This document shows positions 11,008 through 32,693 of a stretch of DNA of 64,000 nucleotides, piece by piece (the first letter of the stretch is position 1; every line of letters starts with the position of its first letter). This stretch comes from Acidimicrobiia bacterium. Lineage in GTDB: Bacteria > Actinomycetota > Acidimicrobiia > Acidimicrobiales > Bin134. The translations under genes and the position numbers were made by a program. Below the pieces are notes generated by a model. It saw only the letters and a list, made by a program, of their open reading frames with translations, was not told the DNA's origin and made no database searches. The DNA is taken from NCBI GenBank assembly GCA_022827725.1, contig JAJEIJ010000019.1, positions 20,382 to 84,381 on the forward strand, read 5' to 3'.

Positions 11008-11700
11008 GTGAGCGCCGTGAGCGGACCCGCAGTCGCATTGCTACACGGACTGGCCGGCTCGGCCCGGAGGACTTGGGGCGACAACGCCTGGATGGACCTC
11101 TTGGCCGATGCCGGTCGGGAAGCAATCGGTGTCGACCTGATGGGCCACGGCACCGCTCCCAAACCCCACCATCCCGAGGGTTATGCCAATTTCGAAGAGC
11201 ATGTGATCGACCACTTCCCCAACGAGCCCATCGACGCCATCGGGTTTTCGTTGGGGGCCTACACCCTGTTGTCCATCGCCTCAAAGACCCCGGAGCGATT
11301 TCACAAGCTGGTTGTATCCGGGGTGGGCAAGAACCTATTCGAACGGGATGAGGACCACAGCCGCATGATCCTTCACGCCGTCACCGGTGAGCCCGACCCC
11401 GAGAACCCCGAAGCACTCCACTTCTCCACCCTGGCCGATGATCCCGAAGCCGACCGGGAGGCACTGGCCGCCCTGTTGGCCAGCCGCACCGCCTTCGACA
11501 CCGATTGCCTCGCCCATGTCGCGGTGCCCACCCTCGTGGTGGTGGGCGATAAGGACTTCGCCTACCCCGCTGACCAGTTGGTGGAAGCCCTGCCCGACGC
11601 CCGCCTCGTGGTCCTTAGGGGCGTCGATCATTTCGCCACCCCCAAATCATTCGACTTCATCGACGCCGCCCTCGACTTCCTCGACGCCCGCCCCTTCTAG
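11008..11700 (+). CDS. alpha/beta hydrolase
   Basis: VALLHGLAGSARRTWG (HG oxyanion region), nucleophile elbow GFSLGA, and C-terminal GVDHF. Confidence 0.8.
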   Translation: MSAVSGPAVALLHGLAGSARRTWGDNAWMDLLADAGREAIGVDLMGHGTAPKPHHPEGYANFEEHVIDHFPNEPIDAIGFSLGAYTLLSIASKTPERFHKLVVSGVGKNLFERDEDHSRMILHAVTGEPDPENPEALHFSTLADDPEADREALAALLASRTAFDTDCLAHVAVPTLVVVGDKDFAYPADQLVEALPDARLVVLRGVDHFATPKSFDFIDAALDFLDARPF

Positions 11701-11708
11701 AGGAGGGG

Positions 11709-13169
11709 CTAGCGGAGCTGTTGGGCGGTTGGAACTAGAGGTGTGGGCAGCAGGGTGTCGCCGGTGAGGTACTCGTCGACGGCAGCGGCGGCGGCCCGGC
11801 CTTCGGCGATAGCCCACACGATGAGGCTCTGGCCTCGGCCGATGTCGCCGGCCACGAACACGCCGGGCACGGTGCTCATCCAGTTGTCGTCGCGGGCCAC
11901 ATTGCCCCGGTCGGTGAGCTCCACCCCGAGGTCGTCAAGCAAGCCGCCGGTCTCGGGGCCGACGAATCCGAGGGCCAATAGCACCAGATCGGCCTGAAAC
12001 TCCCGCTCCGTGCCCTCGATGGGATTGAAGCTCATCCGCCCGCCTTCGAACGACTGCTCTACATCCACCGTGTGCAACGCCTCCACCTTGCCGCCCGATC
12101 CGGTGAACTCCACGGTGTTGATGGCGTAGATCTGGGTGCCGCCCTCTTCATGGGCTGACGACGACCGGTACATGAGCGGCCACGTGGGCCACGGGGTGGA
12201 GTCGTCACGCTCGTCGGGTGGCCGGGGCAGGATTTCGAACTGGTGGATGGAGGCTGCCCCGTGGCGGTGGGCGGTGCCCAGGCAGTCGGCGCCGGTGTCA
12301 CCCCCGCCGATGATGATCACGTGCTTGTCCTCCGCCGAGAACGGGTGTTCTTCCAGATCACCCTCCTGCACCCGGTTGGCCGGGGGCAGGTACTCCATGG
12401 CCTGGTAGATGCCCTCTAGCTCCCGGCCCGGAATGGGCAGGTCCCGCCACTGAGTGGCCCCCCCGGCCAACACCACGGCGTCGTACTGCTCAGTTAGCTC
12501 GGCCGCGCTGATATCTACTCCTACGTTCACCTCTGTCTTGAATACCGTTCCCTCGGCCTCCATCTGGGCCAGCCGGAGATCGAGATGGCGCTTCTCCATC
12601 TTGAACTCAGGGATGCCATAGCGCAACAGCCCGCCGATGCGGTCGGCCCGCTCAAACACCACCACGTCGTGGCCTGCCCGGGTGAGCTGTTGGGCCGCAG
12701 CCAGACCCGCCGGCCCCGACCCCACCACCGCAACCGAGCGGCCGGTGCGGTCGTCACACACCACTGGGGTGATCCATCCCTCTTCCCAAGCCCGGTCCAC
12801 GATCTCCACCTCAACCTGCTTGATCGTCACCGGGTCTTCGTTGATGCCCAGTACGCAGGCGGCCTCGCACGGGGCTGGGCACAGCCGCCCGGTGAACTCA
12901 GGGAAATTGTTGGTGGCGTGCAGCCGCTCGATGGCCTCCCGCCAGTGATCCCTATAGACGAGGTCGTTCCAGTCGGGGATCAGGTTGCCCAACGGACAGC
13001 CGTTATTGCAAAACGGAATCCCGCAGTCCATGCAGCGCGAGGCCTGAGTGCGCACCGACTCGGCATCGAAGTCTCGGTAGACCTCGTTCCAGTCCTTGAT
13101 CCGCACCGGCACCGATCGGCGCACGGGCAGCTCCCGACCGTGCTTGATAAACCCGCGAATGTCACCCAT
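11709..13169 (-). CDS. gltD: glutamate synthase (NADPH) small subunit
   Basis: N-terminal Cys clusters ([17 protein letters not shown]), [14 protein letters not shown] dinucleotide fold. 8-nt overlap with the gltB stop. Confidence 0.95.
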
Positions 13170-23579: not shown

Positions 23580-24185
23580 TCACTGGCGGGCCCGGCGCGA
23601 CAACGCTTTGCTGAACACCCGCACCCGCTCTTCGGTGACCACCGCATCCATGGTCACATCGCCGGGGTGGGACGGCACCCCATCCACGAGCTGACACTCA
23701 TAGGCCAGCCCCACTACCAGCGGCTTGGCTGGGCGGGGCCCGTTGAGCAAAAAGGACAGCGCCCGGTCGTAATAGCCCTGGCCTCGGCCGGCGCGATGGC
23801 CAGCAGCGTCGAACACCACTACAGGGGCGAACACCACATCAAGCTCCCGGGCCGACACCAGAAACTCGACATCGACATCAGGCTCGGGAATCCCAAACCG
23901 GTTGAGCACGAACGTAGTGTCCGGCCCGGCGGGGGCGAACTGGATGGGAGCGGGATCGCGCATCACCGGGAAATACACCTCGATGTCCCGCAGGCGGCAA
24001 GCGGTCACCAGTGGGGCCGGATCGATCTCGCCGTCGTCGGCCACCGTGGCTGACACCCGACCCACGCCGTCCAGCCAGCCAAGGGAGGTAACCGCGTTGC
24101 GCACTGCTCGCGCCGCACCCTCGGGATCAGAAAACAAGCGCCGGGCCTCCCGGGCTTCGGTCCGCAACCGGCTGAGGCTGACCAC
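23580..24185 (-). CDS. 5-formyltetrahydrofolate cyclo-ligase
   Basis: GHRAGRGQGYYDRAL signature near the C-terminus; 201 aa. Confidence 0.8.
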   Translation of the reverse strand: MVSLSRLRTEAREARRLFSDPEGAARAVRNAVTSLGWLDGVGRVSATVADDGEIDPAPLVTACRLRDIEVYFPVMRDPAPIQFAPAGPDTTFVLNRFGIPEPDVDVEFLVSARELDVVFAPVVVFDAAGHRAGRGQGYYDRALSFLLNGPRPAKPLVVGLAYECQLVDGVPSHPGDVTMDAVVTEERVRVFSKALSRRARQ

Positions 24186-24295
24186 GGTTCCAGATTATCG
24201 CTAATGACCCGAAATTGGTTATCCCAAATGGCAACCTTGGCAGGTCATATTCTCGCTGGCTAACTTCGCCTAGTTATCTCAAACAGGGGGTCAAC

Positions 24296-26392
<2,097 letters not shown>

Positions 26393-26432
26393 TCCGGCCC
26401 CGTAGCGGTCTCGAACATGGCAACATGACCCG

Positions 26433-27221
26433 ATGCCGATAGCCAAAGTCCGCGACCTCGACCTTTACTTCGAGTTGCACGGGTCGGGGCCGCCCCTGCT
26501 CAATATCAGCGGCAGCGGGGGCGACTTGCGCATGACTGCCCCCGACCTGAACCCGCTCAACAGTGCCTTCTCCGTGGCCCACTACGACCAGCGGGGCCTT
26601 GGCCAAACCTCCACGCCGCCGTTGCCATGGACCATGGCCGACTACGCCGCCGACGCCGTCGCTTTCTTGGACTTCTTGGGGTGGGATTCAGTGCCGGTGG
26701 TGGGCACCAGCTTCGGCGGGATGGTGGGCATGAACATGGCCGTGCTCCATCCGGGGCGGATCAGCAAGCTGGTGCTCAACTGCACCTCCCCCGGTGGGCC
26801 CGAATACAGCTCATGGCCCCTGCACACCCTGGCCGACCTCGATCCCAACGAGCGGGGCGAGGTGGCGTTGGAGATCATGGACACCCGCTATGAGCGGGGC
26901 GGCCCGCTGCCCCCCGGCGTGGAGATGTTCGTGGTCAATGCGCGCCCCGACGGCCCCGCCCTGCCGCTCGAAACCCCCGGCGCGCTCGGCCAGCTGGAAG
27001 CCCGCCGGGGCCACGATGTGGTCGACCGCCTGAGCGAGATCCACGCGCCCACGCTGGTGTGCGCCGGCATCCACGACGGCATCGCCCCCATGCGCAACAG
27101 CGAACTGCTGCGAGACCGAATCCCCAACGCCCGCCTAGCCACCTTCGACGGGGGCCACATCTTCATGATGCAAGACCCCTCCGCTTACCCCACCATCCTG
27201 GAGTTCCTCGCAGAAGACTGA
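26433..27221 (+). CDS. alpha/beta hydrolase
   Basis: GSGPPLLNISGSGG region, nucleophile elbow GTSFGG, C-terminal GGHIFMMQDP. Confidence 0.8.
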   Translation: MPIAKVRDLDLYFELHGSGPPLLNISGSGGDLRMTAPDLNPLNSAFSVAHYDQRGLGQTSTPPLPWTMADYAADAVAFLDFLGWDSVPVVGTSFGGMVGMNMAVLHPGRISKLVLNCTSPGGPEYSSWPLHTLADLDPNERGEVALEIMDTRYERGGPLPPGVEMFVVNARPDGPALPLETPGALGQLEARRGHDVVDRLSEIHAPTLVCAGIHDGIAPMRNSELLRDRIPNARLATFDGGHIFMMQDPSAYPTILEFLAED

Positions 27222-27249
27222 AGGGCAGCGAACGCCCTACCGTGGTGGC

Positions 27250-27783
27250 GTGAACCGGGAGCGGGCGCTGAGAACACTAGGGCTGGAAAAGGGGGCGCAG
27301 GCTGACGACGTCAATCGGGCATATCGAGCGCTGATCCGCCAAGCCCACCCTGATGCCGGGGGCAGCACTGTGGTGGCGGCTCGCATTACCGAGGCCTACC
27401 ACTGGCTACAGCGGGCCGGAGTTGAGCCTCCCCCGACTCCGAAACCAGCTCCCCCACCCCAACCAGCCCCTTCGGCGGCCGACGACGCCTCTGCGCTGAT
27501 CCTCCCTCCAGGCGACATATTCGCCCGGCTGGTAGAGGCAGGACACCAGTTGGGCGAGGTGAGCTACATCGACCACGACGCCGGCATCGTGCAGATCACC
27601 TTCACCGCCCAAAACGGAGTGGTCTGCCAGCTAGCAGCCACGATCGCCCCAATGCCGTCCCGAACCAGCCGGGGCGAAGCCAGAGTCGAATTCACCCTCG
27701 ATCCCCTGGCCAGCGGCGAGGCCCCACCCATCGACCAAGTTGTCGCCCAATTCGCCCGAATCTTCCAACGCACCCATACCTAG
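27250..27783 (+). CDS. J-domain (DnaJ-like) protein with uncharacterised C-terminal domain
   Basis: LGLEKGAQADDVNRAYRALIRQAHPDAGGS carries the HPD motif, followed by a Pro-rich linker and an unknown ~90 aa domain. Confidence 0.75.
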   Translation: MNRERALRTLGLEKGAQADDVNRAYRALIRQAHPDAGGSTVVAARITEAYHWLQRAGVEPPPTPKPAPPPQPAPSAADDASALILPPGDIFARLVEAGHQLGEVSYIDHDAGIVQITFTAQNGVVCQLAATIAPMPSRTSRGEARVEFTLDPLASGEAPPIDQVVAQFARIFQRTHT

Positions 27784-27821
27784 CTCAAACTGTCACTGGT
27801 CGTCCGTAGAGTGATCGGCCC

Positions 27822-28469
27822 ATGTCAGTTGCTGCCCCACCATCCGAGCGATACAGCGCCATTGCCCAGCCCGCGCTGTGGAGCATGCAGGAGCCCGTCG
27901 CTCTTGAGTTGGCCCCTAACCGGGTCGATCTGGGTGACGAAGCGTGGGTCGACACGATGACCGGCTTCGTCCGGGGCGGCGACTCCCTCTTGGGCACTCT
28001 GGTGAACACAGTGCCCTTGTCCACTGGGAGACGGCCCATGTACGACAACATGGTGGATGTCCCGCGGCTGTCGAGCCATCTCCCCACTGACGTAGTGGGC
28101 GCAGCCTCACCCGTGATCGGCGACATCGCAGCGATGCTGGGTGCCCGCTATCGCAAGGCCTTCACCCGGGTGGGAATCAATCTCTACCGCAACGAACACG
28201 ACAGCGTGGCCTGGCACGCCGACAAGATCGGCCGGGTCATGCACCAGCCCGTCATCGGCCTGGTGTCGCTGGGTGCGGCCCGCCCCTTCCTGCTCCGGCC
28301 CCTCGGCGGCGGCAAGTCCCGAAAGTTCGTTCTCGGCTCTGGTGACCTACTGGTGATGGGCGGCAACTGCCAGCACCGCTTCGAGCACTCCGTCCCCAAG
28401 CTCACCCACCCCACCGCCCCCCGCCTCAGCATCACCTTCCGCCACGAATCCTCAGAAAGGAGCCCTTGA
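27822..28469 (+). CDS. alkB: AlkB-like Fe(II)/2-oxoglutarate-dependent dioxygenase
   Basis: NLYRNEHDSVAWHADK (HxD), QHRFEHSVPK (distal His) and RLSITFR (2OG-binding Arg); 215 aa. Confidence 0.8.
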   Translation: MSVAAPPSERYSAIAQPALWSMQEPVALELAPNRVDLGDEAWVDTMTGFVRGGDSLLGTLVNTVPLSTGRRPMYDNMVDVPRLSSHLPTDVVGAASPVIGDIAAMLGARYRKAFTRVGINLYRNEHDSVAWHADKIGRVMHQPVIGLVSLGAARPFLLRPLGGGKSRKFVLGSGDLLVMGGNCQHRFEHSVPKLTHPTAPRLSITFRHESSERSP

Positions 28470-28471
28470 AT

Positions 28472-30550
28472 ATGCCGGACCCGCAAGCAGAATATTTTGC
28501 TTCCGAAGCTCATGACCGCTTACGAGCGTTGACTGCCAATCAGTCATCGACCTTCCGCCCTGGACAGCTTGAGGCCATTGAACGACTGGTCTTGCAGCGG
28601 AAGAGAGTTCTCTTGGTTCAGCGAACAGGTTGGGGGAAGAGCGCGGTTTACTTCATCGCTACTCGGCTCTTGCGCGATCGAGGTGCGGGTCCCACCCTGT
28701 TGGTGTCTCCTTTGTTGGCATTGATGCGGAACCAGATCGAAGCCGCTCAGCGCATGGGTGTCCGGGCGACCACGATCAATAGCTCCAACCAGGAGGAATG
28801 GGAGGCGGTGTATGCCGCCATTGCCTCGGACCAGATTGACATTCTGTTGATCTCACCGGAGCGGCTAGCCAATCGGGATTTCCGCACCGAGCACCTCCCG
28901 TCGCTCGCCCAGCGGGGCGGCCTCTTGGTGGTTGACGAAGTTCACTGCATTTCCGATTGGGGACACGACTTTCGGCCCGACTACCGACGAATCAAGAGAG
29001 TCTTGGACCTGCTTCCTCAAGGAATTCCCGTCTTGGGCTGCACTGCGACGGCCAATGATCGGGTCGTGGCAGATGTAGCTGAACAGCTTGGGGCTGAACT
29101 GGATCGCATTCGAGGTCCCCTGGGCCGTGAGGGGCTCCGGCTCCGCGTCTACGAACCAGCACCCCAGCAGAAACGACTGGCGTGGATGGCTGAAACAATT
29201 CCCAAGCTGTCTGGGACCGGCATCGTCTACTGCCTCACGGTCCGTGACGCTGAGAGAGTTGCAGCCTGGCTTTCCTCTCAGGGAATAATCGCTGTCGCCT
29301 ACTCGGGCGATTCTGCCAATGACAGCCGATTGGAGATCGAACAACAACTGCTAGGCAATCAGGTGAAGGTCGTCGCTGCGACTTCCGCACTGGGAATGGG
29401 ATTCGACAAACCCGACCTCTCCTTCGTCATCCACTATCAGGCACCGGGCTCCCCGATTGCCTACTACCAACAGGTGGGAAGGGCCGGGCGTAATCTGACC
29501 GAGTCGTGGGGCATCCTGCTTCAGGGCTACGAGGACGCTGCCATCCAAAGCCACTTCATCGACACGGCATTCCCGACCGTTGACCAAGCCCATGAAATTG
29601 TGGGGCTGTTGGAACGAACGGCAAGCCCCTTGAAGCTCACTGAGATTGAACGTGCCGTGAACATCCGACGCTTGCGGCTTGAGCAGCTCCTGAAGATTCT
29701 GGAGGTCGACGGCGCAGTTGAGCGTGTCCCTGCCGGTTGGCAGCGAAGGCTTCAACCGTGGAACTACGACAGTGAGCGGGTTGAAAAAGTCACTGACCTG
29801 CGGTGGGCGGAACAGGCTCAGATGGCTGAATATGCCAGCACTGGCCAGTGCCGAATGAACCTACTCAGGTCGTACCTGGACGATCCACAGACGCATCCTT
29901 GCGGAATCTGCGACAACTGCCTCTCAGACCGCAGAGAGCTCGGGGTGAGCACCCAAGCGGTTCAGGCCGCAGTCGACTTCCTACGGGGAGCAGAGCTCGC
30001 GATTAAGCCCCGAAAACAGTTCGCTGGCGGGGGCAGTATCCCCACGGATCAACGCTGTGAATCTGGTCGCGTGCTGGCCTTGTGGGGTGATGGGGGCTGG
30101 GGAGCACTCGTCCAAGAAGGCAAGGCCGAAGGACGATTCGACGACAAACTGGTTGAGGCTTCAGCGAACTTGATCCTAGAAAACTGGAAGCCTGACCCTG
30201 CACCTGCCTGGGTGACCTATGTGCCTTCCCTCAAGAATCCTGAGCTTGTCCGAGGATTCGCCCAGCGCATCGCCCAGGAACTGGGGCTACCGTGCGATGA
30301 TGCAGTTGTCAAAACTCAGGACACCCAGCCGCAGAAGTTCATGCAGAACAGTGCCAAGCAATACGCAAACATCGTGGATGCATTCAGGATCGTCTCAGAG
30401 ATTCCTTCTGAGCCTGTGCTGTTAGTGGACGACATCGTGGACTCCCGGTGGACGTTCACAGTAATCGCTGCTCAGCTTCGGAGAGCTGGTGCCGGACCGG
30501 TTTACCCGTTCGCCTTGGCAGATACGGCGGGAAGGTCGGCGCGTGACTGA
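28472..30550 (+). CDS. RecQ-family helicase fused to a C-terminal phosphoribosyltransferase-like domain (PsyrT/ShosT-like)
   Basis: ATG 28472 preceded by GAAAGGAG. Helicase motifs QRTGWGKSAVY, DEVHCISDWGHDFRPDY, GCTATA and HYQAPGS..YYQQVGRAGR. C-terminal VLLVDDIVDSRWTF is a PRPP-loop-like (ComF/PRTase) motif. Locally lower GC. Confidence 0.85.
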   Translation: MPDPQAEYFASEAHDRLRALTANQSSTFRPGQLEAIERLVLQRKRVLLVQRTGWGKSAVYFIATRLLRDRGAGPTLLVSPLLALMRNQIEAAQRMGVRATTINSSNQEEWEAVYAAIASDQIDILLISPERLANRDFRTEHLPSLAQRGGLLVVDEVHCISDWGHDFRPDYRRIKRVLDLLPQGIPVLGCTATANDRVVADVAEQLGAELDRIRGPLGREGLRLRVYEPAPQQKRLAWMAETIPKLSGTGIVYCLTVRDAERVAAWLSSQGIIAVAYSGDSANDSRLEIEQQLLGNQVKVVAATSALGMGFDKPDLSFVIHYQAPGSPIAYYQQVGRAGRNLTESWGILLQGYEDAAIQSHFIDTAFPTVDQAHEIVGLLERTASPLKLTEIERAVNIRRLRLEQLLKILEVDGAVERVPAGWQRRLQPWNYDSERVEKVTDLRWAEQAQMAEYASTGQCRMNLLRSYLDDPQTHPCGICDNCLSDRRELGVSTQAVQAAVDFLRGAELAIKPRKQFAGGGSIPTDQRCESGRVLALWGDGGWGALVQEGKAEGRFDDKLVEASANLILENWKPDPAPAWVTYVPSLKNPELVRGFAQRIAQELGLPCDDAVVKTQDTQPQKFMQNSAKQYANIVDAFRIVSEIPSEPVLLVDDIVDSRWTFTVIAAQLRRAGAGPVYPFALADTAGRSARD

Positions 30551-31571
30551 GTTCGGACGAATCGGGTGCGGGAGCACGGCTAACCAGGACTCGCTGGCCG
30601 CGCTGTTGCTCACCAGCAGGCTGGCTTCGGAAGGGGTCAAGCCGTTTACCTCTGCGGAGTACTGGCAACGATCAGATCTTGCCAGCCGACCAAGCGCGCT
30701 TTTTGACACACCGCCTGAATCGCTGTGCAGCGTGCATGGTCTTGCCGAAGAGATGGCTTCCAGGATTGCCGCCCTCTTTGATCGAGCTATCGCGATGGCC
30801 TTTGAGGTCGACCGCTTGATGCAATCTGGCATTCACACCATCACTCCGTTTGATGAGCACTATCCATGTCTGTTCAGGTATCGGCTGAAGGAGAAAGCCC
30901 CGGTGGTGTTACACGCTGCTGGCCCCCTTGATCTCTTCGACCGCCCAGGTCTCGGAGTGGTCGGAAGCCGAGATATTGGCGAAGAAGGCGCCGAAGTCGC
31001 CAAGGGCGCGGCTCGGTTGGCTACCCGGCTGGGTTTGCCGGTGGTTTCCGGCGGTGCTCGAGGAGTGGATCAGGTGGCCATGAACGCGGCTGTTGGTGAG
31101 GAGGGAGCAGCGGGTGCCGCGATTGGCTTTCTGGCTGACTCGATGGAGCGTCAGCTTAAGCGGCCGGACACCCGACGGGTCATCCTCGATGGCTGTGCTC
31201 TGTTGTGTACCCCCTATAAGCCCGACGCCCGGTTCACAGCGGGAACGGCTATGGGCCGCAACAAGCTCATCTATGCCGGTTCGCTGACAACGCTGGTCGT
31301 GGCAAGCGACGTGGAATCTGGTGGGACATGGGCAGGGGCGGTCGAATCGCTCAAACACGGCTTCGGACCGGTCGCCGTATGGCGAGGGCCGGGTGAGGGC
31401 CCAGGCAACGAACGCTTGGAGCAACTGGGAGCGATGCCAGTCAGCTCGTTGGATGAATTGGAGGCCCTGCTCATCGAGGTACAAAACGAGCCGATGCCGA
31501 GTGAATCGGCTACGCCAGTAGGAGACGAGGCTCGGCTTCCGTTCCCCTCAGAGTTCAGCAACCAGAGCTGA
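30543..31571 (+). CDS. DprA/Smf-like Rossmann-fold protein (PsyrA/ShosA-like)
   Basis: GTG 30543 overlaps the helicase stop (GTGACTGA). GVVGSRDIGEEG...LPVVSGGARGVDQVAMNAAV is the DprA core motif. Confidence 0.8.
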   Translation: MTEFGRIGCGSTANQDSLAALLLTSRLASEGVKPFTSAEYWQRSDLASRPSALFDTPPESLCSVHGLAEEMASRIAALFDRAIAMAFEVDRLMQSGIHTITPFDEHYPCLFRYRLKEKAPVVLHAAGPLDLFDRPGLGVVGSRDIGEEGAEVAKGAARLATRLGLPVVSGGARGVDQVAMNAAVGEEGAAGAAIGFLADSMERQLKRPDTRRVILDGCALLCTPYKPDARFTAGTAMGRNKLIYAGSLTTLVVASDVESGGTWAGAVESLKHGFGPVAVWRGPGEGPGNERLEQLGAMPVSSLDELEALLIEVQNEPMPSESATPVGDEARLPFPSEFSNQS

Positions 31572-31595
31572 GAACGATTCGGAACCGACGACAGA

Positions 31596-32693
31596 TCAGC
31601 TCAGGTTGAAGACGGTTCTGATGCCGATGCTCGCTCGGAGGTCTTCTAGGCCGTCGTTGATCTCGTCGATGGGGCGGCGGGCGGTGATCATGGGCTCCAG
31701 GTCGAGGCGGCCGTTCTGCCACAGGGCCAGCAGGCGGGGAACCTCTCGCTGGGAGTTGCAGCCGCCGTACAGACAGCCCAGCAGCTTCTTCTCGGCGGTG
31801 AGATACATGACCGCGGGATTGATGGTCACGGTGTGCTCGACGGCGGGGGCGCCCACCATCACCGTGGTGCCGCCGTTGCGGGTGGCGGCCAGACCGGCCT
31901 CCACCAGCGGGCCGGCTCCGGCGGCGTCGAAGGCGTAGTCGGCCCCGATACCGGCGGTGGCCTCCTGCACATGGGCCACCACGTCGGTCTCGTTCGGATC
32001 AAGCAGGTCGGTGGCCCCGAATGCCACCGCGGCGTTGCGGCGGTCGGCCACCGGGTCGGAGGCGAAGATGCGGGACGCACCGGCCAGGCGGGCACCTTGC
32101 ACCACCGACATGCCCACACCGCCCAGGCCCATCACCAGCACGGTGGCGCCTTCCTCCACCTTGGCGGTGTTGAGCACCGCGCCGACGCCAGTCTGGATGG
32201 CACAGCCGATCACAGCAGCGACTTCCAGGGGCACGTCGGGATCGATCTTCACCGCAGCGGTTTCAGCTACCAAGGTGAGCTGCCCGAATCCGGCTACGCC
32301 CAGACCCCGGTACACCGGCTGGCCGTCCATCGTGAACGGAATCGAGCCGTCGGGCATCGTTCCCATAAACATCGACGCCGCCGACGCGCACAACGTCATC
32401 TCCCCCCGCACGCACCAGTAGCACGCCCCGCACGGGCCGAACGGTGACAGCATCACATGGTCACCCTCCGCCAGGGTGTCCACTCCGGGACCTACCGCGT
32501 CGACAATCCCGGCGGCCTCGTGGCCCAAGATGATCGGGGTCATCATCTCGGGAGCATCGATCATGGTCAGATCGGAGTGGCACAGGCCGCAGTGGGTGAC
32601 CTGCACCCGCACCTGCCCCGGTCCGGGATCAACACAATCCACGTCGGCCATCACCAACGGCGTGGCCGGCGATGCCAAAAGTGCTGCCTTCAT
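31596..32693 (-). CDS. zinc-dependent alcohol dehydrogenase
   Basis: Trimmed to ATG 32693 (MKAALL...). GLCHSD, GHEAAG, structural-Zn Cys cluster (GPCGACYWC) and GLGGVG NAD fold. Confidence 0.85.
   Translation of the reverse strand: MKAALLASPATPLVMADVDCVDPGPGQVRVQVTHCGLCHSDLTMIDAPEMMTPIILGHEAAGIVDAVGPGVDTLAEGDHVMLSPFGPCGACYWCVRGEMTLCASAASMFMGTMPDGSIPFTMDGQPVYRGLGVAGFGQLTLVAETAAVKIDPDVPLEVAAVIGCAIQTGVGAVLNTAKVEEGATVLVMGLGGVGMSVVQGARLAGASRIFASDPVADRRNAAVAFGATDLLDPNETDVVAHVQEATAGIGADYAFDAAGAGPLVEAGLAATRNGGTTVMVGAPAVEHTVTINPAVMYLTAEKKLLGCLYGGCNSQREVPRLLALWQNGRLDLEPMITARRPIDEINDGLEDLRASIGIRTVFNLS

What the first reader, a model, noticed from the sequence alone, without database searches (positions are those of the whole stretch)
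27822..31571. Lower-GC three-gene module: AlkB-like dioxygenase + RecQ-helicase::PRTase fusion + DprA-like protein
SEEN: three co-directional genes are tightly coupled. The AlkB stop is at 28469, and the next ATG at 28472 follows GAAAGGAG. The helicase stop and the DprA-like GTG overlap in GTGACTGA (30543-30550). My hand GC counts of 60-nt samples inside the helicase gene give 55-57%, versus 62-73% in two backbone samples. Gene 2 has RecQ motifs (TGWGKS, DEVHCISDWGHDFRPDY, TATA, QQVGRAGR) plus a C-terminal VLLVDDIVDSRWTF PRPP-loop-like segment. Gene 3 has the DprA core SGGARGVDQ. ESTABLISHED (from memory): a RecQ-like helicase paired with a COG0758/DprA-like protein is the psyrTA toxin-antitoxin family found by shotgun-cloning screens. 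A PRTase-domain toxin with a DprA-like antitoxin is the ShosTA anti-phage system. INFERENCE: this locus combines both toxin architectures in one polypeptide with a DprA-like partner. The translationally coupled AlkB-like dioxygenase is not a described component. It could be a third component acting on nucleic-acid bases. Alternatively the trio is an alkylation-repair unit, with the helicase feeding ssDNA to AlkB, analogous to eukaryotic ALKBH3-ASCC3 coupling. Either reading is unusual.
Basis: partly seen in the sequence, partly recalled or inferred. Interest (0 to 1): 0.75.

Follow-up and report, generated by a model that had tools for sequence, protein, structure and literature searches.

The report
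PsyrTA defence pair beside resident alkB
Genes 2 and 3 are an ordinary copy of the known PsyrTA (RqlHI) toxin-antitoxin and anti-phage pair that was inserted long ago next to a resident AlkB DNA-repair gene, so AlkB is a neighbour and not a third component of a new system.

Summary
The three ORFs, their junctions and the quoted motifs are all present as described. The interpretation does not hold.

Gene 2 matches the PADLOC PsyrT model end to end (901 bits, 11-687 of 692 aa). Published work already defines PsyrT/RqlH as a RecQ-like helicase plus a C-terminal PRTase domain, so there is no new fusion. Gene 3 is PsyrA/RqlI (255 bits).

The low-GC island covers only these two genes (GC3 0.65). alkB (GC3 0.82) matches the backbone (0.81-0.88).

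In related Candidatus Poriferisocius genomes the same alkB|ADH slot is found in six states:
- empty (three genomes)
- occupied by intact psyrTA
- psyrTA next to a 76-aa alkB remnant
- psyrT deleted
- alkB frameshifted into psyrT
- filled by a Type IIG restriction enzyme

The 2-nt alkB-psyrT spacing in the window comes from a lineage-specific TGA-to-TCA change at the native alkB stop.

Across phyla, 0 of 80 PsyrT loci carry an AlkB-family gene within 8 kb. None of 79 more distant AlkB loci carries PsyrT or PsyrA.

Verdict: a known two-gene system in a variable defence slot. Interest is low.

The parts
28472..30550 (+). psyrT / rqlH: toxin made of a RecQ-like helicase, a RecQ Zn-binding region and a C-terminal PRTase-like domain (692 aa)
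   Evidence: PADLOC PsyrT E=9e-272, residues 11-687 against profile 6-686 of 689. Pfam DEAD, Helicase_C, RecQ_Zn_bind, and a weak Pribosyltran hit (E=3.4e-4, below the cut-off). TIGR00614 recQ_fam 253.7 bits, above the 219.8 cut-off; weak ComF/GntX hits on residues 578-683.
28628..28642 (+). Walker A motif GWGKS (K56) of the helicase
   Evidence: Translation. G53, W54, G55, K56 and S57 are invariant in 31 homologs. It corresponds to K49 of E. coli RqlH.
28934..28945 (+). DEVH box (D155-H158) of the helicase
   Evidence: Translation. D155, E156 and H158 are invariant in 31 homologs.
30416..30451 (+). PRPP-loop motif VLLVDDIVDSRW of the PRTase-like domain (contains DIVD)
   Evidence: Sequence. 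D653, D657, S658 and W660 are invariant in 31 homologs. The equivalent DIVD663 motif is required for RqlH toxicity in E. coli (PMC4670107).
30543..31571 (+). psyrA / rqlI: DprA-like antitoxin (342 aa). The GTG start overlaps the psyrT stop by 8 nt.
   Evidence: PADLOC PsyrA E=2.6e-76 (255 bits), against ShosA at 61.6 bits. Pfam PF02481 at 97 bits. The dprA equivalog scores 77.7, below its 191 cut-off. The same 8-nt overlap and a 341-342-aa product are called in L008, L171 and L175.
28455..28462 (+). GAAAGGAG ribosome-binding site of psyrT, at the left end of the inserted DNA
   Evidence: Sequence. The equivalent AAAGGGAG and GACAGGAG lie after the native alkB stop in L089 and L171.
27822..28469 (+). 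alkB: a resident 2OG/Fe(II) dioxygenase of the ALKBH3/ALKBH2-like type. It is a flanking backbone gene and not part of the module.
   Evidence: PF13532 at 68 bits, above the 31.2 cut-off. Backbone GC3 of 0.815. Same synteny without psyrTA in L001, L002 and L170. H132, D134, H189, R201 and R207 are invariant in 24 orthologs. Best solved homologs are ALKBH3 (4e-18) and ALKBH2 (1e-9).
28452..28454 (+). TCA codon at the position of the native alkB TGA stop. The change extends AlkB by 5 residues (SERSP) and creates the 2-nt gap to psyrT.
   Evidence: Alignment A5: L089, L171 and the empty-slot genomes L001, L002 and L170 have TGA at this codon.
28417..28422 (+). C6 run inside alkB. It is C7 in L178 and L179, where alkB is frameshifted into psyrT (909-aa ORF).
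   Evidence: The frameshift replaces RLSITFRHESPERSP* and removes the RxxxxxR motif.
31572..31595 (.). 24-nt spacer between the psyrA stop and the stop of the convergent ADH gene. This is the right border of the insert.
   Evidence: Alignment A6: homology to the empty-slot genomes resumes at the ADH stop (TCA at 31596).

Best explanation
The locus is a canonical two-gene PsyrTA (RqlHI) toxin-antitoxin and anti-phage module of about 3.1 kb, at roughly 28455-31571. It lies in the ~20-nt spacer between two convergent resident genes, alkB and a Zn-dependent alcohol dehydrogenase, in a Candidatus Poriferisocius genome (Acidimicrobiales).

By homology, PsyrT is a 3'-5' RecQ-like helicase whose C-terminal PRTase domain is genotoxic. 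PsyrA is a DprA-like protein that binds and restrains it. Infection or loss of PsyrA would release the toxin.

alkB is a neighbouring housekeeping repair gene. psyrTA probably rides on its transcript, but alkB is not a functional component.

Shown here: family membership, insertion borders, composition, slot polymorphism, and the lack of AlkB linkage elsewhere.

Inferred from the literature or from layout: toxicity, neutralisation, the defence role, and co-transcription.
For: Family membership:
- End-to-end PsyrT and PsyrA matches.
- The published architecture is identical.
- 80 full-length PsyrT loci across phyla. 52 have a PsyrA homolog directly downstream, and 4 more have one nearby in an atypical arrangement.

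alkB is resident and independent:
- Only psyrT and psyrA are low in GC3.
- Empty alkB|ADH slots with the same flanks in L001, L002 and L170.
- Base-level borders mapped.
- The native alkB stop is retained 15-18 nt before psyrT in L089, L171 and L175.
- Intact psyrTA next to a 76-aa alkB remnant in L169.
- alkB frameshifted in L178 and L179.
- psyrT deleted beside an intact alkB in L173.
- A Type IIG R-M enzyme follows a duplicated alkB downstream of the resident alkB in L003.

No linkage elsewhere:
- 0 of 80 unrelated PsyrT loci have an AlkB-family ORF within 8 kb; the best E-value is 0.41.
- 0 of 79 AlkB loci at 39-50% identity have PsyrT or PsyrA.
Against: - Within the genus the adjacency is common and old. 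PsyrT alleles are only 72-81% identical.
- At least three different mutations have removed the native alkB stop, so that alkB ends at or inside the psyrT start. This is inferred from the AlkB tail classes and the junction alignment.
- No promoter-like or terminator-like site was found on the + strand between alkB and psyrT (the scan is sigma-70-based and poorly suited to Actinomycetota). Expression is therefore probably coupled.
- The AlkB is ALKBH3-like, and ALKBH3 is the paralog that works with a helicase in eukaryotes.
- No function was tested experimentally.
Confidence: 0.85

Rival explanations
1. AlkB, PsyrT and PsyrA form a real three-component unit in this genus. The RqlH-type helicase would unwind DNA to feed single strands to the ALKBH3-like AlkB (as in ASCC3-ALKBH3), or AlkB would act on a base adduct made by the PRTase domain.
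For: - Same-strand adjacency with a 2-nt gap in the window and a 23-nt overlap in L008.
- Repeated loss of the native alkB stop in occupied genomes.
- A fused 909-aa ORF exists.
- The AlkB is closest to ALKBH3 among solved structures.
Against: - alkB has backbone composition and psyrTA does not.
- Sister genomes keep alkB alone.
- L169 keeps psyrTA with only an alkB remnant that lacks the HxD motif.
- The fusion arises from a +1 C frameshift that deletes the RxxxxxR 2OG-binding motif of AlkB.
- L173 lost psyrT but kept alkB.
- 0 of 80 and 0 of 79 in the reciprocal cross-lineage tests.
- No paper links AlkB and RqlH.
Confidence: 0.05
2. Regulatory capture only. psyrTA has no promoter of its own and is expressed from the alkB (or longer PPase-to-alkB) transcript. 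Its level would then follow whatever controls alkB, for example alkylation stress, without any biochemical cooperation.
For: - Gaps of 2-18 nt, or overlaps, at the alkB-psyrT junction in all occupied loci.
- No promoter-like or + strand terminator-like site in 24000-32000.
- Short gaps of 28-40 nt between the co-directional PPase, hydrolase, DnaJ-like and alkB genes.
Against: - The promoter scan uses the sigma-70 consensus and is not informative for Actinomycetota.
- There are no transcript data.
- L169 retains psyrTA after losing most of alkB and two upstream genes, so a specific alkB promoter is not obviously required.
Confidence: 0.4
3. The pair is not a defence or toxin-antitoxin module here. 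It would be a housekeeping RqlH-type repair helicase with an accessory DprA-like factor, as proposed for Mycobacterium smegmatis RqlH.
For: - RqlH was first characterised as a chromosomal helicase in M. smegmatis (cited).
- About 18 of the 80 PsyrT loci, mostly Actinomycetota, have at least 1 kb of downstream sequence but no detectable PsyrA partner. Solo, apparently non-toxic forms may therefore exist.
Against: - Presence or absence varies among sister genomes.
- GC3 stays foreign.
- PsyrT allele relationships do not follow the backbone.
- One decay state has lost the toxin but kept an antitoxin fragment.
- Relatives elsewhere sit beside BrxL, GmrSD, SIR2, Type I S-subunit and LmuB-like genes.
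- PsyrTA gave phage defence in the Millman study.
Confidence: 0.08

Closest known systems
PsyrTA / RqlHI toxin-antitoxin and anti-phage system (Sberro 2013; Russell and Mulvey 2015; Millman 2022)
   Same: - Toxin with an N-terminal RecQ-like helicase, a Zn-binding region and a C-terminal PRTase domain carrying the DIVD PRPP-pocket motif.
- A DprA-like partner immediately downstream with overlapping stop and start.
- Full-length HMM matches to both proteins.
   Different: - About 50% identity to the nearest proteobacterial copies in the scan, such as Providencia and Pseudomonas.
- PsyrA is 342 aa and matches only positions 4-297 of the 398-position PsyrA profile, so it lacks the C-terminal part (the HTH region of E. 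coli RqlI, reported as dispensable).
- The host is an uncultured Acidimicrobiales genus, and nothing has been tested experimentally.
ShosTA
   Same: A PRTase-domain toxin paired with a DprA-like antitoxin. The ShosA model hits gene 3 weakly (61.6 bits).
   Different: As described in the ShosTA paper, ShosT couples PRTase and pyrophosphatase activities; no helicase domain is described there. Gene 3 scores 255 bits on PsyrA against 61.6 on ShosA. No ShosT model is among the 25 best hits for gene 2.
Competence proteins ComFA/ComFC and DprA
   Same: The domain set is the same: helicase, ComF-type PRTase-like domain and DprA fold. There are weak ComF/GntX hits on PsyrT residues 578-683. Russell and Mulvey noted the analogy.
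   Different: The dprA equivalog scores 77.7, below its 191 cut-off, and the ComF model scores 23.4, below its 233 cut-off. The helicase is RecQ-like and not ComFA-like. The genes are fused and behave as a mobile, polymorphic module.
AlkB / ALKBH2-ALKBH3 oxidative demethylases (gene 1 only)
   Same: The 2OG-FeII_Oxy_2 domain scores above the Pfam cut-off. The HxD...H and RxxxxxR residues are conserved. The best solved relatives are ALKBH3 and ALKBH2.
   Different: It does not meet the E. coli AlkB equivalog (18.8 bits against a 267 cut-off). The N-terminal 110 residues match no model. It is a resident gene with no conserved helicase partner.
Chromosomal defence hotspots between conserved core genes
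   Same: A single slot bounded by conserved genes holds alternative cargo: psyrTA, nothing, or, in L003, an HNH gene and a duplicated alkB followed by a Type IIG R-M enzyme. Toxin-antitoxin modules lie nearby.
   Different: No integrase, tRNA or conserved flanking repeats were seen. Only about 12 distinct genomes were inspected.

Membership tests
PsyrTA / RqlHI | Toxin with an N-terminal RecQ-family superfamily-2 helicase core (Walker A, DExH, helicase C, Zn-binding cysteines) | tested here: met
   Pfam DEAD 83.5, Helicase_C 59 and RecQ_Zn_bind 30.6 bits, all above their cut-offs. TIGR00614 at 253.7, above 219.8. K56, D155, E156, H158, C460, C477, C480 and C483 are invariant in 31 homologs.
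PsyrTA / RqlHI | C-terminal PRTase domain with a PRPP-binding acidic loop (DIVD) in the same polypeptide | tested here: met
   The PADLOC PsyrT profile is covered to position 686 of 689. The VLLVDDIVDSRW motif is conserved. The Pfam PF00156 hit is only 20.4 bits, below its 26.3 cut-off, so support comes from the family profile and the motif and not from the generic model.
PsyrTA / RqlHI | A DprA-like partner encoded immediately downstream in the same operon | tested here: met
   PADLOC PsyrA at 255 bits and PF02481 at 97 bits. The 8-nt overlap is conserved in L008, L171 and L175. The partner lies directly downstream in 52 of 80 unrelated loci, with 4 more nearby in atypical arrangements.
PsyrTA / RqlHI | The toxin is growth-inhibitory through its PRTase domain and is neutralised by the partner; the pair protects against phage | not testable with these tools
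   Known only for E. coli RqlHI and the Millman donor system. Indirect support: L173 lost psyrT but retains a psyrA fragment.
ShosTA | A PRTase toxin of the ShosT type with a ShosA-type partner | tested here: not met
   Gene 2 carries a full RecQ-like helicase, and its best model is PsyrT. Gene 3 scores 61.6 bits on ShosA against 255 on PsyrA.
Canonical competence DprA | Meets the dprA equivalog model | tested here: not met
   TIGR00732 at 77.7 bits against a 191.15 cut-off; NF008007 at 59.1 against 495.
Canonical RecQ | Meets the recQ equivalog model (helicase plus RQC and HRDC) | tested here: not met
   TIGR01389 at 295.8 bits against a 640.2 cut-off, with only residues 26-372 aligned.
AlkB-family dioxygenase (gene 1) | 2OG-FeII_Oxy_2 fold with the Fe ligands HxD...H and the 2OG-binding RxxxxxR | tested here: met
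   PF13532 at 68 bits, above 31.2. H132, D134, H189, R201 and R207 are invariant in 24 orthologs. Aligned to ALKBH3 over residues 93-207.
Hypothetical three-gene AlkB-PsyrTA system | Co-occurrence of AlkB with PsyrTA in phylogenetically independent loci | tested here: not met
   0 of 80 PsyrT loci from many phyla. 0 of 79 distant AlkB loci, of which 52 have at least 2.5 kb on one side or the other. No 2OG family among the 25 listed of 42 Pfam families matched by 68 upstream neighbours.
Hypothetical three-gene AlkB-PsyrTA system | The three genes share an evolutionary fate (gained, lost and kept intact together; common composition) | tested here: not met
   alkB alone in L001, L002 and L170. 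psyrTA with an alkB remnant in L169. alkB frameshifted in L178 and L179. psyrT deleted with alkB intact in L173. GC3 is 0.80-0.88 for alkB against 0.62-0.69 for psyrTA.

The most novel reading that the evidence does not exclude
In Candidatus Poriferisocius, psyrTA may have been domesticated into the alkB operon. An ALKBH3-like AlkB and the RqlH-type helicase would then cooperate, as a bacterial counterpart of ASCC3-ALKBH3. Alternatively, expression of the defence toxin would be tied to the alkylation-damage response. The repeated loss of the native alkB stop codon in occupied genomes would reflect selection for translational coupling and not drift.
Probability: 0.06. Interest if true: 0.5.

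Novelty: new member of a known kind. Interest (0 to 1): 0.13.

Why it matters
It matters little for new biology. Standard defence-system HMMs would label this pair as PsyrTA, and the apparent third gene is explained by its position. The useful result is a corrected annotation. The public records that carry a name call the helicase only a RecQ family ATP-dependent DNA helicase. The locus also illustrates that tight spacing and an apparent operon layout can arise by insertion next to a resident gene followed by a stop-codon mutation. A minor positive result is that the alkB|ADH slot in this genus behaves as a variable defence locus. Its natural variants (empty, intact, toxin-deleted, neighbour-degraded) could serve population studies of how toxin-antitoxin and defence genes turn over.

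Tried and rejected
It was weak even on the positive controls (E 0.02-0.36), so I discarded it.
- A loose HxD...H...RxxxxxR regular expression gave 172 non-specific hits and was not used.
- My greedy gene caller mis-called strands in high-GC loci. I used stop-to-stop ORFs plus HMMs for the linkage tests.
- AlkB C-terminal tail length is not a reliable proxy for slot occupancy. The short-tail forms P0018 and P0037 are occupied.
- The genome-contig scan did not return the Poriferisocius genus itself (best hit 63% identity). Clade members came from the look-up of encoding contigs and from one metagenome hit.
- I searched for mobility signatures (direct or inverted repeats, integrase) at the insert borders. 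The only notable hit, a 17-nt inverted repeat, is not conserved in relatives.
- The sigma-70 promoter scan found nothing, but it is not informative for this phylum.
- I considered the 909-aa AlkB::PsyrT ORF as Rosetta-stone evidence for a functional link and rejected it. It is a +1 C frameshift that removes the 2OG-binding motif of AlkB.

Full report
**Observation.** The three co-directional ORFs exist exactly as described: 27822-28469 (215 aa), 28472-30550 (692 aa) and 30543-31571 (342 aa). The alkB stop TGA is at 28467-28469, GAAAGGAG at 28455-28462 and the ATG at 28472. The stop of gene 2 and the GTG of gene 3 overlap in GTGACTGA at 30543-30550. All quoted motifs are in the translations. 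A GC dip is real, but it covers two genes and not three. AlkB has GC 0.656 and GC3 0.815, like the flanking PPase (GC3 0.853) and ADH (0.813). PsyrT has 0.585/0.645 and PsyrA 0.611/0.650. The psyrTA span (GC 0.594) is lower than every sampled 3.1-kb span of the window.

**Genes 2 and 3.** Gene 2 matches the PADLOC PsyrT model end to end (E=9e-272, 901 bits, residues 11-687 on profile 6-686 of 689). Gene 3 matches PsyrA (255 bits) far better than ShosA (61.6 bits). Pfam finds DEAD, Helicase_C, RecQ_Zn_bind and a sub-threshold Pribosyltran hit in gene 2, and DNA_processg_A in gene 3. NCBIfam places gene 2 in the RecQ family but below the recQ equivalog, with weak ComF/GntX hits on the C-terminus. 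Gene 3 falls below the dprA equivalog.

The literature already defines this architecture. Millman et al. state that PsyrTA (also called RqlHI) and ShosTA both have a DprA-like antitoxin and a toxin containing a PRTase domain (10.1101/2022.05.11.491447). Russell and Mulvey describe RqlH as an N-terminal RecQ-like helicase plus a C-terminal PRTase domain. Its toxicity requires the PRPP-pocket motif DIVD663, and RqlI neutralises it by binding (PMC4670107). The window protein carries VLLVDDIVDSRW, and D653, D657, S658 and W660 are invariant in 31 homologs. A scan of species-representative genomes returned 80 loci with full-length matches (query residues about 10-690) from Actinomycetota, Chloroflexota, Pseudomonas, Providencia, Clostridium, cyanobacteria and others. 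A PsyrA homolog lies directly downstream in 52 of them, and 4 more have one nearby in an atypical arrangement. The helicase::PRTase polypeptide is therefore ordinary PsyrT and not a new combination.

**AlkB is a resident gene.** The AlkB protein has many orthologs at 70-90% identity in Acidimicrobiia MAGs. NCBI names the closest relatives Candidatus Poriferisocius sp., a genus of Acidimicrobiales. In L001, L002 and L170 (AlkB 77-82% identical) the gene order around alkB is the same as in the window: hydrolase, DnaJ-like, AlkB, then ADH, 3HCDH and DLH on the opposite strand. L001 and L002 also share the upstream TrkH, TrkA, 5-FTHF ligase and H+-PPase genes, while L170 differs upstream of the hydrolase. 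In all three, alkB and ADH are separated by only about 20 nt and psyrTA is absent. AlkB GC3 is 0.80-0.88 in all relatives examined, and PsyrT/PsyrA GC3 is 0.62-0.69 in the four relatives that carry them.

Base-level alignment places the insert directly after the native alkB stop and before the 22-24-nt spacer that precedes the ADH stop. In L089, L171 and L175 the native TGA is retained, and an RBS plus the psyrT ATG follow 15-18 nt later. In the window that codon is TCA (28452-28454), which extends AlkB by five residues to the TGA just before the psyrT ATG. L008 has a different change that gives a 23-nt overlap. The tight alkB-psyrT coupling is therefore lineage-specific, whereas the 8-nt psyrT-psyrA overlap is conserved.

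**Natural variants of the slot.**
- Occupied and intact: the window with L004-L006, L008, L089, L171/L172 and L175-L177.
- psyrTA intact but alkB reduced to a 76-aa remnant (residues 151-209, lacking HxD), with the hydrolase, DnaJ-like, ADH and 3HCDH genes gone: L169.
- alkB frameshifted by an extra C in a C6 run. This replaces RLSITFRHESPERSP* and runs in frame into psyrT as a 909-aa ORF: L178/L179.
- psyrT and the first ~90 codons of psyrA deleted, leaving a 291-aa DprA-core ORF with low GC3 beside an intact alkB: L173/L174.
- Empty: L001, L002 and L170.
- Other cargo: L003, where the resident alkB is followed by an HNH gene and then a duplicated alkB, a 181-aa ORF and a Type IIG restriction-modification enzyme (PADLOC 2e-77).

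On backbone identity, L171, L169 and L003 are outgroups to the rest, so the occupied state is old. PsyrT alleles are 72-81% identical in a star-like pattern. The closest pair (L089-L169, 81%) has the most distant backbones (DLH 76%), which suggests losses and/or allelic exchange.

**Cross-lineage linkage tests.** I built an AlkB-family HMM from 120 homologs. It detects every positive control at about E-90 but finds nothing better than E=0.41 in ORFs within 8 kb of the 80 unrelated PsyrT loci. In the reverse direction, only one of 80 AlkB-family loci from metagenomes carries PsyrT and PsyrA: L089, the sole clade member (76% identical). The other 79 (39-50% identical) carry neither, although only 52 of them have at least 2.5 kb of flank on one side or the other. 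The co-directional upstream neighbours of 68 unrelated PsyrT loci are heterogeneous. They include BrxL, GmrSD, SIR2, Type I S subunits and DUF1156, and no 2OG oxygenase appears among the 25 listed families of the 42 matched. In L007, psyrTA sits beside an LmuB/mad3-like ATPase and M78 peptidase genes. No paper in the library mentions AlkB together with RqlH.

**Mechanism.** Family membership, borders and independence from alkB are shown here. The following is inferred from RqlHI work and the ShosTA analogy: PsyrT is a helicase whose PRTase domain causes DNA stress and SOS-type filamentation when unrestrained, and PsyrA, with its DprA fold, binds and restrains it. The defence role rests on Millman et al.. 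Co-transcription with alkB is plausible from the spacing and from the absence of + strand terminator-like sites, but the promoter scan is not suited to this phylum.

**Residual points in favour of a link.** The AlkB is closest to human ALKBH3 and ALKBH2 among solved structures. Several occupied lineages have lost the native alkB stop. Both are compatible with drift once a nearby in-frame stop exists downstream, and they do not outweigh the variants in which one partner is lost or broken.

**Verdict.** This is a known two-gene PsyrTA/RqlHI module in a variable defence slot next to a resident alkB. It is a new member of a known kind, and its interest is low.

Noticed in passing
L003:8001-14832: In a related genome the resident alkB is followed by an HNH/DUF222 gene and then a near-duplicate alkB (223 aa, 297 bits on the AlkB HMM). 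That copy is joined by 4-nt overlaps to a 181-aa ORF with no family hit and to a 1058-aa Type IIG restriction-methyltransferase. Another HNH gene lies further on. Whether an AlkB copy next to a methyltransferase has any meaning (for example repair of off-target methylation) is speculation.
   Followed up: partly
L178:4001-6730 and L179:1491-4220 (window equivalent 28417-28422): A 909-aa AlkB::PsyrT fused ORF is caused by one extra C in a C6 run. It removes the RxxxxxR motif of AlkB. The two assemblies may derive from related samples, so an assembly error is not excluded.
   Followed up: yes
L173:6651-7847 and L174:3421-4617: A deletion of about 2.3 kb removed psyrT and the 5' end of psyrA. It left a 291-aa DprA-core ORF (74% identical to PsyrA residues 91-342) and an 80-aa fragment with a P-loop-like GCGKT motif. 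This is a decay state with the toxin lost and part of the antitoxin kept.
   Followed up: yes
L169:7778-8008: alkB is reduced to a 76-aa remnant directly upstream of intact psyrTA. The hydrolase, DnaJ-like, ADH and 3HCDH genes are missing from this genome's locus.
   Followed up: partly
window 28327-28343 and 31561-31577: A 17-nt inverted repeat, 16 of 17 complementary, has one arm inside alkB and the other across the psyrA stop. None of 300 shuffles reached this score, but the search region was chosen after the fact. It is not conserved in L008, L089, L171 or L169 (best 12 of 17). No function is assigned.
   Followed up: yes
window 28472-31571; L008, L089, L171, L169: psyrT and psyrA keep GC3 of 0.62-0.69 in all five clade members, although the alleles are only 65-81% identical (PsyrT 72-81%, PsyrA 65-77%) and the backbone GC3 is 0.79-0.93. 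In a different Acidimicrobiia genome (L007) psyrTA has host-like GC3 (0.84-0.87). The persistent deviation is unexplained.
   Followed up: partly
L175-L177:2637-5249; L089:2600-5300: HicA/HicB-like and PIN/PhdYeFM toxin-antitoxin genes are called between the hydrolase and the DnaJ-like gene in L175-L177. L089 has extra, unannotated ORFs in the same interval. This may be a second variable slot a few kb upstream of alkB.
   Followed up: no
L011, L014, L017, L021, L024, L026, L032, L041, L055, L059, L061, L066, L068, L077, L078, L081, L082, L087: About 18 full-length PsyrT/RqlH loci have at least 1 kb of downstream sequence but no detectable PsyrA homolog on the same strand. They are mostly Actinomycetota (Solirubrobacterales, Microthrixaceae, Ilumatobacter). 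They may be solo RqlH forms or may use a different partner.
   Followed up: no
window 27822-28469: AlkB orthologs evolve faster (69-85% pairwise identity) than the neighbouring ADH (89-97%) and PPase (92-100%). By sequence the protein is closer to human ALKBH3 and ALKBH2 than to E. coli AlkB, which is not found at E<=1e-3.
   Followed up: partly
L007:5057-7899 and 11207-12400: In another Acidimicrobiia genome psyrTA lies between an 807-aa LmuB/mad3-like SMC-type ATPase with a 140-aa partner and HTH plus peptidase_M78 genes. This is a defence-island-like context.
   Followed up: partly
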